A DNA stretch of 62,987 bases, the filler included, from Octopus bimaculoides (lineage: Eukaryota), in NCBI RefSeq assembly GCF_001194135.2. It is 8 parts of 7 records of this genome, joined end to end, with 100 filler letters (N's around TTAATTAATTAA, not from the genome) between each part and the next. Parts side by side here need not be neighbours in the genome. Positions count along the whole stretch, not along the records: positions 1 to 13,742 come from NC_069001.1; positions 13,843 to 23,056 come from NC_068988.1; positions 23,157 to 37,677 come from NC_068983.1; 5 more parts are not named here. One strand, 5' to 3'. Numbering within the stretch: position 1 is the stretch's first letter; the number at the start of each line of letters is the position of its first letter. Shown in pieces: positions 6,519 to 32,700 of the stretch. The position numbers were made by a program, and so were the translations under genes. The notes below the pieces were generated by a model, which was not told the origin of the DNA, ran no database searches, and saw only the letters and a list, made by a program, of their open reading frames with translations.

Positions 6519-6751
6519 CTTATTTCTTTATTGCCCACAAGGGGCTAAACATAGAGGGGACAAACAAGGACAGACAAAGGGATTAAGTCGATCATATCGA
6601 CTCCAGTGCGTAATTGGTACTTAATTTATCGACCCCGAAAGGATGAAAGGCAAAGTCGACCTCGGCGGAATTTGAACTCAGAACGTAGCGGCAGACGAAA
6701 TATCGCTAAGCATTTCGCCCGGTGGGGTAACGTTTCTGCCAGCTCGCCGCC
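6519..6751 (-). mobile_element. SINE family A, tail type 3 (LINE-like tail)
   Basis: Well-preserved head and body. Tail cttaatccctttgtctgtccttgtttgtcccctctatgtttagccccttgtgggcaataaagaaa. Confidence 0.9.
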
Positions 6752-6989
6752 TTCATCTGCTTCTATACTTAGTTGGGATAAGACATCCCGAATATTATAT
6801 TAGCAAGTTTAAAGTGATTTCTTTTGTGCCGTAAACCGTTTACCATTTCAATGGTATTCCCCTTCCCTTGATGCCCTAAGCACATGCTTATTTTGCTAAA
6901 TGGTTAATCCAGACTGGTCATGAAGAGTTTTGCTCAAGAACACAACGTGCCGCCCGGTCTTGGAATCGAAACCACAATCCCGTAAGGAG

Positions 6990-7252
6990 ACTTAGAGCTG
7001 GGTGTGTCATGAGCATTAGGATGCACTTGACCGGAGATTAAGCAGGTTTCCATGGCTGAGAAGCGACGGAGACTACAACCTTCCTTCACCTCTCTACGGG
7101 TCGCTAGAACACATATACTGGTGAATGGACTGGAGCCACGGGAAATGGAGTGTCCCGCTCCAAAATGCACTGCACCGCCCCGTCCGGGAATCGGAACCAC
7201 AGTCTCACAGTTCGAGTGCAACAACCAACCCACGAGACCAAGCGCCTTCCCT
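6990..7252 (-). mobile_element. tRNA-derived SINE family D (related copies at about 11128-11362 and 54998-55115, +)
   Basis: tRNA-like head ggtctcgtgggttggttgttgcactcg...ggttccgattcccggac followed by a shared gctccagtcca(t/c)tc core. Confidence 0.6.
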
Positions 7253-7829
7253 ACGGAAGCAAAATCTGGCAAAAACATATAAATAAACAAAAATAACTAT
7301 CAGAAAACAACACGTCATAGGGATACAACCCCCCCCCTAACTAAAACCAAAAGAGAATTATTTATGAGACAAATGTATTAGCATTTATTTCACTCAACTT
7401 CTAGCTACTTTCCATCAACGACTTCTCTCCACATCAGAGAGTGTGGAGGTCAACTGCAGTGACCGCCCGCCCTTCCCTTCTACCTGATGTTGTGCGGTGT
7501 TTAAAGATTGACACGGCATCGATATCTCACACACAGCCATCGGTTGACATTTAGAAAATAGTTGGAGACGCTCGATTAATTTCTCAAGTCCTTTCCAAAA
7601 GTTTATCCCAACACCGAATACCGAAAGAATTTATCGAATTCCGTAGCTCGCGGCTATTCTATTCCTTCCTCTTCTTCATCATCAACAGACACCGGCATAC
7701 AACAACAACTACAGCGGCAGCAGCAGCAGTAACTACAGCAAAAACAAATGCTACTACTACTGCAGTCATAACTATAGTCACTATCACTACTACAACAAGA
7801 ACGGCAGCAACAACATCAACAACAACAAT

Positions 7830-7893
7830 TACTACTACTACTACTACTACTACTACTACTACTACTACTACTACTACTACTACTACTACTACT
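7830..7893. repeat. (TAC)n microsatellite (one of dozens of TA, CA, GA, CATA, ATT, CAA tracts in the window)
   Basis: Direct reading. Confidence 0.95.
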
Positions 7894-8344
7894 GCCGACA
7901 CTTATATTTTAAAATCAGGTTCTCATTCCATTGGTATCTTGACCTGAACCACTACGTTACGGAGACCCACACAAATCAATACCCGTTGTCAAGCGTTGTG
8001 GGGTATAGACACGAACTCACATAAAGAATCTTGCAAACCAAATCGAAAAACGATATATATATATATATATATATATATATAAATAATAATAAAAGAGTTA
8101 CGACGCAAAAAACGTGTATAATTAAATGAACATATTTATCTTCTTCAATATATATTTCAGTATAAAAAATTCATTAAGGGACTTAATAAATCAAAATTCC
8201 TTTACACATCTTCAGGAAAAATAAATATAACACCAGAAAACTACATTCGGTTCAAAATACAAACCGTTCATGGCGATAAATATATAAATACATATATACA
8301 CATACTTTTATTCGTTTTAACCTAAAAGTTTGTGGCCATACTGG

Positions 8345-29369: not shown

Positions 29370-29640
29370 AGGAGGAGGTGAACCAGTGAAGAAAGCGGAA
29401 TAGTGATGCAATGCTACTTAGAAAGTGAACCTAAAAAAAGGGGTTGTAGAAAACGGATGTTAACACTTTGGGTAGAGCATGGTATGTTTAAAGTGACTGA
29501 GCAAAGATTAGTTGATCAAGCTAAGGATCTATTAAGAAAAGAATTGGAGGCGGAAGAGATCACAAGGGACCTGGAAAAGAAAGACCAGGCTGTAGAAAAG
29601 ACAAACAACAACATAAGAGATGCAGTTCAAACCAAAGAAG
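29370..29640 (+). mobile_element. R4/Dong-clade LINE N-terminal fragment
   Basis: WTSEESGIVMQCYLESEPKKRGCRKRMLTLW...MFKVTEQRLVDQAK motif typical of the R4/Dong N-terminus. Confidence 0.7.
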
Positions 29641-29774
29641 AACTCAAAGGGAAAAAAAAATGATAATAACACTGCCAATTAAGAAGGGACACCTGGCACC
29701 AGCGATTTAAGTGAGGAGGACCAGAAGATTTTAGATGAGTAGCTGGAAGTAGCGAGTAAAGAAGAATGAAAAAG

Positions 29775-30170
29775 ATTACCACTTTAGGAAAGTGGTTATA
29801 CACCATTAGGTGTACTCCGCTTCCGTACATTAAATTCTGAAGAAACAACGAAACGCAGATTCTGAACCATCAACACAACAATATTTATTTACAGAGGAAA
29901 TAGGCAGCACTTCGCCCTTTGGTTGCTGAGACGCCGTCAATGATGTTGGTTGGTTATTTGTCTAGCTCCAGAGTTGGAATGTTGGAAAGAGCTGTCTCCA
30001 GAGTTGGAATGTTGGAGAGAGACTGCTTGAAGACGTCCAGGCTCATGGCCGGCCGGCCGGCCGAGAAAGAGAATGAAAAAGGGTGCGAAGATTGAATATT
30101 GATGACCACGCATGCGCATGAGACTCTTCCTGTGTTCCTTCCGGAACTAGTCCCTGTGCATGCGTGGATA
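29775..30170 (-). mobile_element. Solo or orphan LTR of the same family as 43266-43465
   Basis: ccactttaggaaagtggttatacaccattaggtgtac...aacacaacaatatttattt...gaggaaataggcagc...ggttgctgagacgcc shared in inverted orientation. Contains a 30-bp x2 internal tandem at about 29965-30025. Confidence 0.65.
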
Positions 30171-30389
30171 AGCTTTCCGGATATGTCGTCTGCTATTAAG
30201 GCGTTACTACACCACCATTAAATGGTACCAACAGAAGGAAGCTGCTACATAACTGTTCGTTTAAAGTTTTAACTGTTAAAAAATCGGACATAAATGTTCA
30301 CATTGCAGAGTAAAAAAAAATGTCGAGCAAAAATAGTTTGGAAAGATTTTCTCAAAAGAAAGTCTAGGTGAGAAAGATTGAGTACATAA

Positions 30390-32700
30390 AAATTAATAAT
30401 GTGAACGTGAAGTTACAGATAGATACAGGCAGTGATATTAAAATTAACACTGACACATGGAAAAAATGGAAACTTTAAATATTGCGAAAGGTGTCTCAGA
30501 AAAAAAATTACATATTTTGGGCGAAATAATAACTGTAATAATAACGGGGTAAAACCTTGAAAGCAAAAGGTTTTGTGCTAAATAATGCAACAAACTTGTT
30601 CGGTACTGATTGGATGGAATTGTTTAGTTTATCGGATCTACCCATAAATCTGTTCCGTAAAAATATAAATGGCTTTTCTTCCAGTAAAAACAAGTCGTCA
30701 GACGAATTGAAAGAAAAAGTAAAAAATAATTTCCTGAAGTTCATTCTAAATGGGCAACACCAACTGTGTACGTTAAGAAAAAGAATAATAAACCAGTGCA
30801 CACACTGATTTAAACGAATGTCTTAAAACGTATCACTATCCGCTACCTACTCCGGAGGATATTTTTGAGAAATCAAAAGGTGATATCTTTATTATAGGCA
30901 CGAAGGCCTCATTACAAAGAGGGGGGACATTACAAGGACAGACAATACAAAACGTGGGGTACATAAAGCGAATGATGAAATGAAATGAATAACTTACAAT
31001 ATGATGATGGAATGGCTTACGAGTCCCCCAAAGCTCGCAGTTTCATTTAACAGTTTTCTTATAGAGTTCTTATTCATTTTTTTTTTCCTTTTANNNNNNN
31101 NNNTTAACAGTTTTCTTATAGAGTTCTTATTCATTTTTTTTTTCCTTTTATGGTTCATTTATGATTATATATGGCCTCAACTCCTCCACCGTTACGACGC
31201 TTGGCAAAGTTTTGTAGCCCACATACAATCCGCTTCGTTGGAAATTAAATCTGTTCATTTCTCGCAGCTTCTTCGCTATACATTCCTCCACCACTATTGC
31301 TTTTGTTTCTTCATCAAACGTTCCGGGTTCCAATTTCAGCCGTACCAATCCTTTTATTTTGGCTATCGTTTTTTCCGTTTCTAAATCCTTACTGTAGAAA
31401 AGTATTGTTCTAATATTTTTAAAATCTGCCTTTCCGATTATCTTTCCTTCTGACTTCGCCTTTTCCTTCTGTTCCATCATCGCAGTCCACCAATTTACCC
31501 ACTTCTCCTGTCTTGTCAAATGTTTTTCCTGCTTTGTCTTGGTTCTGATCTTAGTTACGTTCTGTTCCTCGCTACAATTTCCATCTTCCATCATCTTTTT
31601 TTTCCCCCTTTCTTTCTTTTTGGGGACTTTGGCGGCGATTCAGTCCGCATACGTTTTTTTTTCTCCATGCTCCTCGGTCTCTTCCTGCTTTTCTTCTACA
31701 CCATTTCCTCCTCACAAACCTCTGTTTCTTCTACTTCGTTTTCTTCCACAATGATCTCTCTTCGAGGACACACCGCTTGCATGTGTCCTCTACTTCCGCA
31801 TTTGTAGCATACGGGTTGCCTTCCCTCCACTACGATCCGTAGTCGAGTGTCATCGGGGAGCACTAATTCCTCTGCGATGTTATGTAGGTCCGGTAGGGTA
31901 ATGTGGGCTAGAATTTCTACCCCAAAACCCCACCATTTGATTTGAGAAATCAAAAGGTGGAGAGATATTTTCTAAACTGAATCTCTCTGACGCGTACCTA
32001 CAAATTAGAGTCGACGATGAATGTTCGAAATACCTAACAGTGAACACACATAAAGGACTATATAAGTGCAGCAGGTTACCATTTGGTTTAAAAGTCGCAC
32101 CAGTAATTTTTCAACAAATTATGGATGCAATGTTGGTGGACTGTGAATTTACAGTTCCATATCTGGATGATATACTCATTAAAAGTGAATCTATGGATCA
32201 ACACGTCGAGCACGTTAAAAATGTATCTCAAAAAAAAAAAAAAAAAGATTACAGCTTTACCTTGAGTGAAGAAAAGTGTGATTTTTTTCTTACCGGAAAC
32301 AAGATATTTAGGACAAATCATTGACAGAAATGGACGACGACCTGACCCGTCGAGGGAAGAGGCAATAAAAAATATGCCTCATCCGACTAATATAGCGACC
32401 ATACAAGCAATTTTAAGACTGGCAAATTATTACCAAAATTATATCCTAAATATGCATAAGGCTAAGGCTTCACTGAATAATTTGCTAAAAAAAAAGATAT
32501 GAAATGGAATTGGTCAGAAAATTGCCAAAAAGGTGTTTGACGAAATTTAAAAAATATTAATATCTGATTTGTCGTTAGCTCACTTCGATCCTACAGCGAA
32601 GATTGTTGTAGTTTCAAATGCTTCTGAGTACAGTATAAAAGCGGTAATGCTACATAAATATAAAGATGGTAACATGAAGGCGGTGGAGAAAATTGAAAGT
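30390..32700 (+). mobile_element. Decayed Gypsy/Ty3 pol (protease-RT-RNase H start), split by the 30883-31940 insertion
   Basis: DTGSD, NLFGTDWMELF, YHYPLPTPEDIFEKSKG|G.IFSKLNLSDAYLQI, LPFGLKVAP..FQQIMD, PYLDDILI, YLGQIIDRNGRRPDP, LAHFDP. Confidence 0.9.
30883..31940 (-). mobile_element. ORF1-only (HAL1-like) non-autonomous L1/Tx1-type retroelement, 5'-truncated, 19-bp TSD
   Basis: TSD tttgagaaatcaaaaggtg at 30864-30882 and 31941-31959. ORF1-like LRIVVEGRQPVCYKCGSRGHMQAVCP (CCHC knuckle) with a charged tail to a stop at about 31148, then UTR ending ...GTGCCTATAATAAAGATAT. No ORF2. Confidence 0.75.

What the first reader, a model, noticed from the sequence alone, without database searches (positions are those of the whole stretch)
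6519..31959. Three element classes share one 3'-terminal motif: LINE, ORF1-only element and tRNA-SINE (candidate three-tier Tx1/L1 system)
Seen, in element orientation: SINE (6519-6587) gtctgtccttgtt-TGTCCCCTCTaTGTttAGCCccTTGTGggcAATAAAgaaa. ORF1-only element (30883-30945) gtctgtccttgtaaTGTCCCCccTCTtTGTaatgAGGCCTTcGTGcctatAATAAAgat. Tx1/L1-like LINE (21339-21395) attgtatt-TGTCCCCTCTgTGTaaAGCCTTGTGtggctAATAAAaggaa. Known: SINEs borrow the 3' tail of stringent-type partner LINEs (CR1, L2, RTE), whereas mammalian L1 is relaxed and needs only poly(A). Inference: this Tx1/L1 lineage recognises a specific 3' sequence or structure, and both an ORF1-only derivative and a SINE parasitise it. I do not know of this trio being described in cephalopods.
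Basis: partly seen in the sequence, partly recalled or inferred. Interest (0 to 1): 0.8.

Follow-up and report, generated by a model that had tools for sequence, protein, structure and literature searches.

The report
Octopus retroelement trio sharing hairpin tail
In this octopus DNA a broken Tx1/L1-type retrotransposon, a repeated element that carries an ORF1 gene but no reverse transcriptase at this site, and a tRNA-type SINE all end in the same short motif, predicted to fold into a hairpin, which likely lets the two defective elements borrow the first one's copying enzyme, a partnership I could not find described for animal Tx1/L1 elements.

Summary
All three minus-strand elements end in TGTCCCC-TCTnTGT, a 4-bp stem with a YUU(N)GU loop, then AATAAA and no poly(A). 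SINE-LINE and SINE-ORF1 similarity beats shuffles (0 and 3 of 20,000); ORF1-LINE alone is weak (48 of 20,000). The LINE fragment is 78% identical to a full endonuclease-RT-zinc-finger ORF2 of L1/Tx1 type. The ORF1 element is a real 5'-truncated insertion with a 19-bp target duplication and an empty site in other contigs. It is multi-copy, and other copies also appear to run from the ORF1 stop straight into this UTR. Stem pairs differ between elements yet stay paired. Best reading (0.68): a stringent Tx1-type LINE lineage whose RT recognises the hairpin and also copies a HAL1-like ORF1-only family and a SINE. Not shown: trans-mobilisation, a genome-wide survey (no genome held), Tx1 placement by tree, or that this ORF1 came from this LINE. 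Sister SINEs carry a similar hairpin with other ends, so Tx1 specificity is open. Every tier has precedents (HAL1, HeT-A, Ag-Sponge, TRE5-A.2; plant L1-tail SINEs); the combination in an animal Tx1/L1 lineage was not found in print.

The parts
6520..6754 (-). tRNA-type SINE, full length (about 235 nt): head with box A-like (6741-6730) and box B-like (6679-6667) words, a core shared with at least six other copies in the window, and the shared tail
   Evidence: box B read by eye (one mismatch to the recalled consensus); no target duplication of 6 or more bases found
6520..6577 (-). SINE tail: upstream 14-mer shared with the ORF1 element, pyrimidine tract, hairpin (stem 6545-6542 with 6536-6533, loop CUUGU 6541-6537), AATAAA 6532-6527, short A-rich end without poly(A)
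21698..22403 (-). C-terminal 230 or so codons of an L1/Tx1-type ORF2 (zf-RVT), 5'-truncated, with one in-frame stop and one frameshift; stop codon 21700-21698
   Evidence: (78% over 214 aa to P0160)
21341..21697 (-). 3' UTR of the LINE fragment, contiguous with the ORF2 stop; ends in the shared tail (hairpin stem 21365-21362 with 21355-21352, loop UUGUGU, AATAAA 21351-21346); the fragment lies inside a (TCTA/TCTG)n microsatellite on both sides
   Evidence: only this one copy seen
31148..31940 (-). 5'-truncated, frameshifted ORF1: end of second RRM-like domain, CCHC knuckle, Lys/Glu-rich linker, 90-aa C-terminal ferredoxin-like domain, stop 31150-31148
30883..31147 (-). 3' UTR of the ORF1 element (about 210 nt once the duplication around the assembly gap at 31094-31103 is discounted), ending in the shared tail (stem 30909-30906 with 30899-30896, loop CUUCGU, AATAAA 30893-30888) five bases before the target duplication, no poly(A)
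31941..31959 (-). 5' copy of the 19-bp target-site duplication of the ORF1 element
   Evidence: joint 30863 to 31941 skipping 1077 with 19 shared letters in runs X4 and X14
30864..30882 (-). 3' copy of the 19-bp target-site duplication; the target is the RT region of a Ty3/Gypsy-like repeat on the plus strand

Best explanation
A LINE fragment with L1/Tx1-type ORF2, a multi-copy element carrying only an ORF1 at this site, and a tRNA-type SINE share one 3' motif, and the motif is likely the RNA hairpin that the LINE's reverse transcriptase recognises when it copies its own RNA and, in trans, the RNAs of the other two. Mechanism: an autonomous Tx1-type family makes ORF2p (endonuclease, RT, zinc finger; shown for a 78%-identical relative). 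ORF2p would bind the stem-loop just upstream of AATAAA and prime at a nick, giving target duplications and 5' truncation (the products are shown for the ORF1 element; binding is inferred). The ORF1-only family probably arose by loss of ORF2 from an old member of the lineage, kept the tail and makes its own RNA-binding ORF1p, which would package its RNA in cis as in TRE5-A.2 (inferred). The SINE is probably transcribed by Pol III from its head and took the tail from a member of the same lineage, not necessarily from this LINE family (inferred).
For: Sequence similarity above chance at equivalent 3'-terminal positions. Same predicted hairpin in all three, z -1.75, -1.21, -3.68, with four Watson-Crick stem pairs in each while the pairs differ (C-G against G-C at the second pair between LINE and ORF1 element). 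A tail variant in loose ends of runs X1 and X4 keeps the stem with U-A for A-U at the closing pair (read by hand). No poly(A): the ORF1 element ends five bases after AATAAA, directly on a perfect 19-bp duplication. ORF2 relative P0160 has Exo_endo_phos, RVT_1, zf-RVT and matches human L1 ORF2p at E 1.5e-53 against 1e-19 for R2. ORF1 family: summed contig depth in X1 about 750-4,900 over most of the ORF and 12,500-20,800 over the UTR, against 44-63 for seven of the eight X1 contigs listed; loose ends at 31943 in X4 and X14 continue as the ORF1 of P0001/P0002; loose ends at 31068 in X4, X14 and X21 read as an ORF1-like end and stop joined to the same UTR (hand translation of 30 letters each). 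The ORF1 model has two RRMs before the CCHC knuckle. Precedent for the mechanism: ZfL2 stem-loop recognition (PMC4176376, passages) and TRE5-A.2 (PMC3159450, passages).
Against: No functional test. Only one LINE copy with the tail was seen; the second Tx1-like fragment (38200-39430) has no UTR. ORF1-LINE tail similarity alone is at background among window tiles. Two of three hairpins fold only modestly better than shuffles (9 and 22 of 200). The SINE and ORF1 tails share a 14-mer that this LINE lacks. No record links this ORF1 family to an ORF2 (0 of 150 homologues match three ORF2 proteins), and two-RRM plus CCHC ORF1s also occur in other LINE clades (recalled). Sister SINEs with a similar hairpin have (ATT)n or other ends and no significant primary similarity to the motif, so the hairpin may serve more than one LINE clade. 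The X1 loose end at 31068 (agreement 0.58) does not read clearly as an ORF1 end. Summed contig depth is not a copy number.
Confidence: 0.68

Rival explanations
1. The tail is shared by descent or capture but is not an RT recognition signal: it is a 3'-end processing or termination module (pyrimidine tract, hairpin, AATAAA), and the RT is relaxed.
For: All three carry AATAAA right after the hairpin; a Pol II LINE transcript needs a 3'-end signal; stem-loops near L1 and Alu 3' ends have been proposed even for relaxed elements (PMC5135761, search listing only).
Against: A Pol III SINE has no need of a Pol II signal, yet keeps the hairpin in several tail variants; no poly(A) is present at the exact ORF1-element junction.
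Confidence: 0.12
2. The hairpin tail belongs to a wider set of octopus retroposons and the driver of the SINE and ORF1 element is another LINE (for example R4/Dong or I/Nimb); the tail on the Tx1-type fragment is a captured or adjacent truncated piece.
For: Only one LINE copy shows the tail and its microsatellite flanks hide any target duplication. Sister SINEs have a similar hairpin with (ATT)n ends. Dong-R4, CR1 and RTE are all recently active in O. vulgaris (PMC13282606, main text parts 1-2).
Against: The LINE tail follows the ORF2 stop through an unbroken 350-nt UTR and differs from the SINE tail by small indels that keep the stem paired, unlike neutral decay. A 19-bp duplication with 5' truncation fits an APE-type L1/Tx1 enzyme (established knowledge). 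The hairpin scan found no hit at the RTE, CR1-like or R4-like fragments of the window, though these may lack their 3' ends.
Confidence: 0.12
3. The ORF1 element is not an ORF1-only lineage but a deleted copy, or small set of deleted copies, of an autonomous LINE whose ORF2 was lost at or after insertion; the system then has two tiers (LINE and SINE).
For: No full-length copy was seen; contigs are short, and no piece spans the element. P0001 and P0002 stop early at GKVDF, so many copies are decayed.
Against: Depth runs through the ORF1 end and UTR in all four runs, diverged ORF1-like ends join the same UTR in three of four runs, and no shown loose end reads as an endonuclease start (403 loose ends were not shown).
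Confidence: 0.08

Closest known systems
HAL1 (half-L1) of mammals
   Same: Non-autonomous L1 derivative encoding only ORF1p, arisen several times (PMC5753468, passages).
   Different: Mammalian L1 is relaxed and poly(A)-dependent; here the ORF1 is two-RRM plus CCHC, the end lacks poly(A), and a SINE shares the tail. The HAL1 paper itself was not held.
TRE5-A.1 / TRE5-A.2 of Dictyostelium
   Same: ORF1-keeping, ORF2-deleted derivative mobilised in trans; the 3' module with a predicted structure is essential and ORF1p acts best in cis (PMC3159450, passages).
   Different: TRE5-A.2 is a near-identical deletion product that targets tRNA genes; no tRNA-SINE with the tail is described in the passages read. 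The octopus ORF1 family is diverse (346 clusters at 50% identity match P0001) and its UTR shares only the last 45-60 nt with the LINE.
HeT-A (Jockey clade) and Ag-Sponge (CR1 clade)
   Same: Listed with HAL1 as ORF1-present non-autonomous LINEs (PMC5786205, passage).
   Different: Other clades; that list names no Tx1 case (0 occurrences of Tx1 in the text).
ZmSINE2/ZmSINE3 with LINE1-1_ZM, and SINEX-3_CR with L1-1_CR
   Same: tRNA SINEs sharing a 45-80 nt 3' end and a hairpin with compensatory changes with an L1-clade LINE; only three such SINEs were found among 58 pairs (PMC3472496, PMC3747384; passages and Table 1).
   Different: Plants and algae, ending in poly(A) or poly(T); no animal L1/Tx1 pair and no octopus pair is in that table; no ORF1-only tier.
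SINEU and Tx1-Mar of crocodilians
   Same: SINEs likely mobilised by Tx1 elements (PMC4494074, passages).
   Different: snRNA heads, poly(A) tails, link inferred from shared targets; no LINE in Repbase matched the 3' half of SINEU-1.
Bivalve HCD-SINE partnerships
   Same: Mollusc tRNA SINEs swap tails and share 35-61 bp at 72-95% with LINE 3' ends (PMC11481361, section 13).
   Different: Partners named are CR1-Zenon, CR1, L2 and Nimb; Tx1 does not occur in the text.

Membership tests
L1/Tx1 group LINE | ORF2 with APE endonuclease, RT and C-terminal zinc finger | tested here: met
   zf-RVT in the window fragment; all three domains in P0160, 78% identical to it; best solved relative human L1 ORF2p
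Tx1 clade (as against other L1-group clades) | RT groups with Tx1 references in a tree | not testable with these tools
   No named clade references could be fetched; WKLN and LDQxKAFDRV motifs in P0160 look Tx1-like from recall only; L1-Tx1 families are reported in O. vulgaris
Tx1 clade (as against other L1-group clades) | Target preference (microsatellites, repeats, RNA genes) | tested here: inconclusive
   One LINE copy in a (TCTA/TCTG)n tract, one ORF1 copy in a Gypsy-like RT; too few, and microsatellites are common in the window
ORF1-present non-autonomous LINE (HAL1-like) | ORF1 followed directly by a LINE 3' end, no ORF2 | tested here: met
   Shown for this copy; loose ends in 3 of 4 runs suggest the same for other copies
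ORF1-present non-autonomous LINE (HAL1-like) | Interspersed multi-copy family with retrotransposition hallmarks | tested here: met
   19-bp duplication, empty-site joint, 5' truncation, high depth; two other copies as gene models at 81-92% over the knuckle region
ORF1-present non-autonomous LINE (HAL1-like) | ORF1 derived from the ORF1 of the autonomous partner | tested here: inconclusive
   No ORF1-ORF2 link among 150 homologues; tree of 44 of 150 does not sort types; Atlas look-alikes include ZCCHC3-like clusters only at 0.89, a lead
ORF1-present non-autonomous LINE (HAL1-like) | Full-length copies with 5' UTR and intact ORF1 | not testable with these tools
   No genome held; contigs too short
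tRNA-derived SINE with LINE tail | Pol III head with boxes A and B, short, multi-copy, non-coding | tested here: met
   Box A-like match, box B-like with one mismatch, 235 nt, head/core in at least seven window copies; the parent tRNA was not identified
tRNA-derived SINE with LINE tail | 3' end homologous to a LINE 3' UTR end | tested here: met
   79% over 38 nt; 0 of 20,000 shuffles
Named octopus SINEs OK, OR1, OR2 | Match to the published consensus | not testable with these tools
   SINEBase supplements not readable; likeness to OK is recalled only
Stringent-type LINE | Conserved 3' stem-loop with compensatory changes | tested here: met
   few sequences, not a formal covariation test
Stringent-type LINE | Tail required for retrotransposition and bound by ORF2p | not testable with these tools
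   needs a reporter or binding assay

The most novel reading that the evidence does not exclude
Octopus carries a stringent Tx1 system with three tiers: autonomous LINEs, an old and highly diversified lineage of ORF1-only elements, and the SINE family that makes up a large share of the genome, all keyed to one bulged hairpin with a YUU(N)GU loop whose variants track different Tx1 families. It would be the first animal L1-group case of tail-sharing SINEs, would name the motor of the octopus SINE expansion, and would support stringent recognition as the ancestral L1-group state.
Probability: 0.3. Interest if true: 0.72.

Novelty: new variant of a known kind. Interest (0 to 1): 0.5.

Why it matters
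SINEs are about 11.6% of the O. vulgaris genome and 13 L1-Tx1 families are recently active there (PMC13282606), yet none of the papers I read names a partner LINE for an octopus SINE. L1-group LINEs are the standard exception to tail sharing (three SINEs among 58 pairs, none animal). An animal Tx1/L1 lineage with a structured, poly(A)-free tail used by two kinds of parasite gives a natural set of stem variants for testing how L1-group RT picks its RNA, and whether relaxed recognition in mammals is derived.

Tried and rejected
Genome-wide motif survey: impossible, no genome held. Exact motif scans of metagenome, viral and prokaryote contigs: 0 hits each. ORF2 profile scans of the same collections: 0 of 73, 0 of 45 and 1 of 16 candidates, the one a weak bacterial match, so no second LINE UTR was obtained. 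tRNA parent of the SINE: ARAGORN 0 genes, Rfam only microsatellite noise. Target duplications of SINE and LINE: none of 6 or more bases for the SINE, only microsatellite matches for the LINE. UTR-wide homology between LINE and ORF1 element upstream of the tail: none. Primary homology of sister SINE tails to the motif: 21 comparisons, best 42 of 2000 shuffles, none convincing; the 47002 copy was cut at the wrong place in that test, so six tails were tested properly. ORF1 tree to separate ORF1-only from autonomous types: Lys/Glu-rich linkers fall on both sides, inconclusive. Fold of the ORF1 C-terminal domain: generic ferredoxin-like matches, best Z 5.7, rmsd 3.1, 74 aligned; L1 ORF1p is not among the rows shown for either model. 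Expression: no RNA holder listed; in RNA run X21, 0 of 213 laid reads were 99% alike and both strands were covered, so nothing can be said on autonomous transcription. Earlier scan findings: none. Rejected: chance similarity; assembly artefact for the ORF1 insertion (empty-site joint); host CCHC gene (duplication, truncation, copy depth).

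
Full report
Setting. No genome is held for this window. The nearest named proteins are from Octopus bimaculoides (92% over 62 aa for P0002), so the window is octopus DNA; the species is not certain. Evidence beyond the window comes from one lay of four public runs, protein searches and papers.

The observation. Each has TGTCCCC, TCTnTGT, a 4-bp stem around a 5-6 nt loop, AATAAA and a few more bases. Against 20,000 shuffles the SINE-LINE score was reached 0 times, SINE-ORF1 3 times and ORF1-LINE 48 times; among 3072 window tiles the SINE tail picks out the other two first, whereas the ORF1-LINE pair scores no better than unrelated tiles. 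Upstream of the last 45-60 nt the LINE and ORF1 UTRs are unrelated. The SINE tail is mosaic: closer to the LINE in the middle, closer to the ORF1 element in an upstream 14-mer. The donor of its tail was therefore probably a relative of both, not this LINE copy.

The LINE. 21341-22403 is a 5'-truncated, dead fragment: zf-RVT, a stop and a frameshift, then an unbroken 350-nt UTR and the tail, inside a (TCTA/TCTG)n tract. It is 78% identical over 214 aa to P0160, a 1148-aa protein with endonuclease, RT and zf-RVT domains whose best solved relative is human L1 ORF2p (E 1.5e-53; R2 1e-19; only L1 and R2 are there to compare). Eight relatives were found among 173 candidates, two named from octopods. 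Placement in Tx1 rests on recalled motifs, not a tree. That the UTR belongs to the family consensus rests on this one copy; scans for a second one failed.

The ORF1 element. It spans 30883-31940 between perfect 19-bp repeats, inside a Gypsy-like RT. Contigs of X4 and X14 join 30863 to 31941 with 19 shared letters, the empty site. Loose ends at 31943 in X4 and X14 translate by hand into the residues that precede this point in P0001 and P0002, so the copy is 5'-truncated. Summed depth in X1 is about 750-4,900 over most of the ORF (one low-complexity spike aside) and 12,500-20,800 over the UTR, against 44-63 for seven of the eight X1 contigs listed; the tool warns that this is no copy number, but it points to tens of close copies and more elements sharing the UTR. 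At 31068, where the window has a gap duplication, loose ends in X4, X14 and X21 read as Ile/Val-rich ends with a stop, like the window's IIINEP end, running into the same UTR; the X1 end is unclear, only 30 letters are shown, and 403 loose ends were not shown. The family protein models as two RRMs, a CCHC knuckle and a long helix (pLDDT 80; RRM matches Z up to 9.2, rmsd 2.1, 78 aligned). The window's last 90 residues are a real domain, found in five other octopus proteins and weakly in a sixth, with a generic ferredoxin-like fold; P0001 and P0002 stop just before it, which I cannot explain. P0001 matches 346 clusters at 50% identity; of 16 looked up, 12 are named from octopods and 4 are unnamed. 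None of 150 homologues overlaps an ORF2 (P0011, a repeat protein, left out), and a tree of 44 of them does not tell ORF1-only from autonomous types. So the ORF1-to-UTR layout is supported at family level, but descent from this LINE is inferred only through the tail.

The SINE. 6520-6754 has box A-like and box B-like words and a core shared with at least six other window copies. Those copies have different tails. I could not match it to the named octopus families OK, OR1, OR2.

The hairpin. All three tails fold into the same upper stem (z -1.75, -1.21, -3.68). The four stem pairs are Watson-Crick in each, with different pairs, and a variant in X1 and X4 loose ends swaps the closing A-U for U-A. 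A scan made after seeing this found 11 such hairpins in the window against 2.2 (sd 1.5, maximum 5) in 60 shuffles: the three tails, three sister SINE tails, two in the body of another SINE family and three unrelated. Of seven sister SINE tails, three keep all four pairs (one with a further pair type, A-U) and four have mismatches or wobbles; none is significantly like the motif in primary sequence. The structure thus seems wider than the sequence motif. Either several Tx1 families each carry a variant, or the hairpin also serves another clade; this is the main open point. None of the three ends has poly(A), clearest at the ORF1 element where the duplication follows AATAAA by five bases.

Mechanism. 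Shown: shared terminal motif, paired stem with changes, products typical of target-primed reverse transcription for the ORF1 element. Inferred: ORF2p binds the hairpin, as shown for zebrafish L2 elements (PMC4176376, passages); the ORF1-only RNA is packaged by its own ORF1p and copied in trans, as for TRE5-A.2 (PMC3159450, passages); the SINE is a Pol III transcript with a borrowed tail. I put this at 0.68, a processing-only role at 0.12, another driver clade at 0.12 and a mere deletion copy at 0.08.

Prior work. ORF1-keeping derivatives are known from L1, Jockey and CR1 clades (PMC5786205, PMC5753468; passages). L1-tail SINEs are known from maize, sorghum and Chlamydomonas (PMC3472496 passages, PMC3747384 passages and first part of the tables). 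Tx1-driven SINEU shares no recognised tail (PMC4494074, passages). Bivalve partners are CR1-Zenon, CR1, L2, Nimb (PMC11481361, passages and section 13). Cephalopod repeat papers report L1-Tx1 and abundant SINEs but no partnership in what I read (PMC13282606 parts 1-2 of 3, supplement not opened; PMC8967140, PMC9115989, PMC4758252, PMC4824008, PMC5804259, PMC3531059, passages). Nine searches turned up no octopus or Tx1 trio. Repbase, Dfam, the SINEBase supplements, the HAL1 paper and the 1994 octopus SINE paper could not be read and may hold part of this.

Verdict. Real, and a new variant of known kinds: interest 0.5.

Noticed in passing
window 214-430 (+), 1120-1345 (+), 5892-6100 (+), 15000-15410 (-, two copies), 47002-47100 (+), 50888-51110 (+): Sister SINEs with the same head and core but other tails; most keep a pyrimidine tract and a stem-loop with a CUUGU-like loop, and some end in or sit within (ATT)n/(ATC)n tracts.
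   Followed up: partly
window 38200-39430 (-): Second Tx1/L1-type ORF2 fragment of another family (67% DNA identity to the first); the RT core is missing and replaced by about 130 unrelated bases, and it ends in a microsatellite without a UTR.
   Followed up: partly
window 30743-30882 and 31941-32324 (+): Multi-copy Ty3/Gypsy-like RT fragment split by the ORF1 element.
   Followed up: partly
window 52100-52740 (-): Decayed LINE C-terminus that looks like a restriction-like endonuclease type (R4/Dong, from recall); no clean 3' end.
   Followed up: partly
window 37200-37580 (-), 59090-59430, 61765-62727 (-): RTE-like ORF ends (two copies, 79% alike) and a CR1-like ORF end, judged by eye from the ORF list.
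   Followed up: no
window 38854-39016 and 42208-42370: 163-bp direct repeat at 99% identity, 3.3 kb apart; one copy lies in the stretch that interrupts the second Tx1-like fragment.
   Followed up: no
window 11404-11750, 13850-14040, 15634-15783, 27039-27153: Another short repeat family; two copies have a TCGA-loop-TCGA hairpin in the body resembling the core hairpin of the main SINE.
   Followed up: no
proteins P0008, P0167: An ORF2 of this octopus-type LINE family (62% identity) is filed under a Herbaspirillum MAG, probably host contamination.
   Followed up: no
window 31420-31430 (-); P0001, P0002: Two gene models of the ORF1 family stop at the same residue just before the C-terminal domain that the window copy and five relatives keep: possibly a subfamily with a shortened ORF1.
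   Followed up: partly
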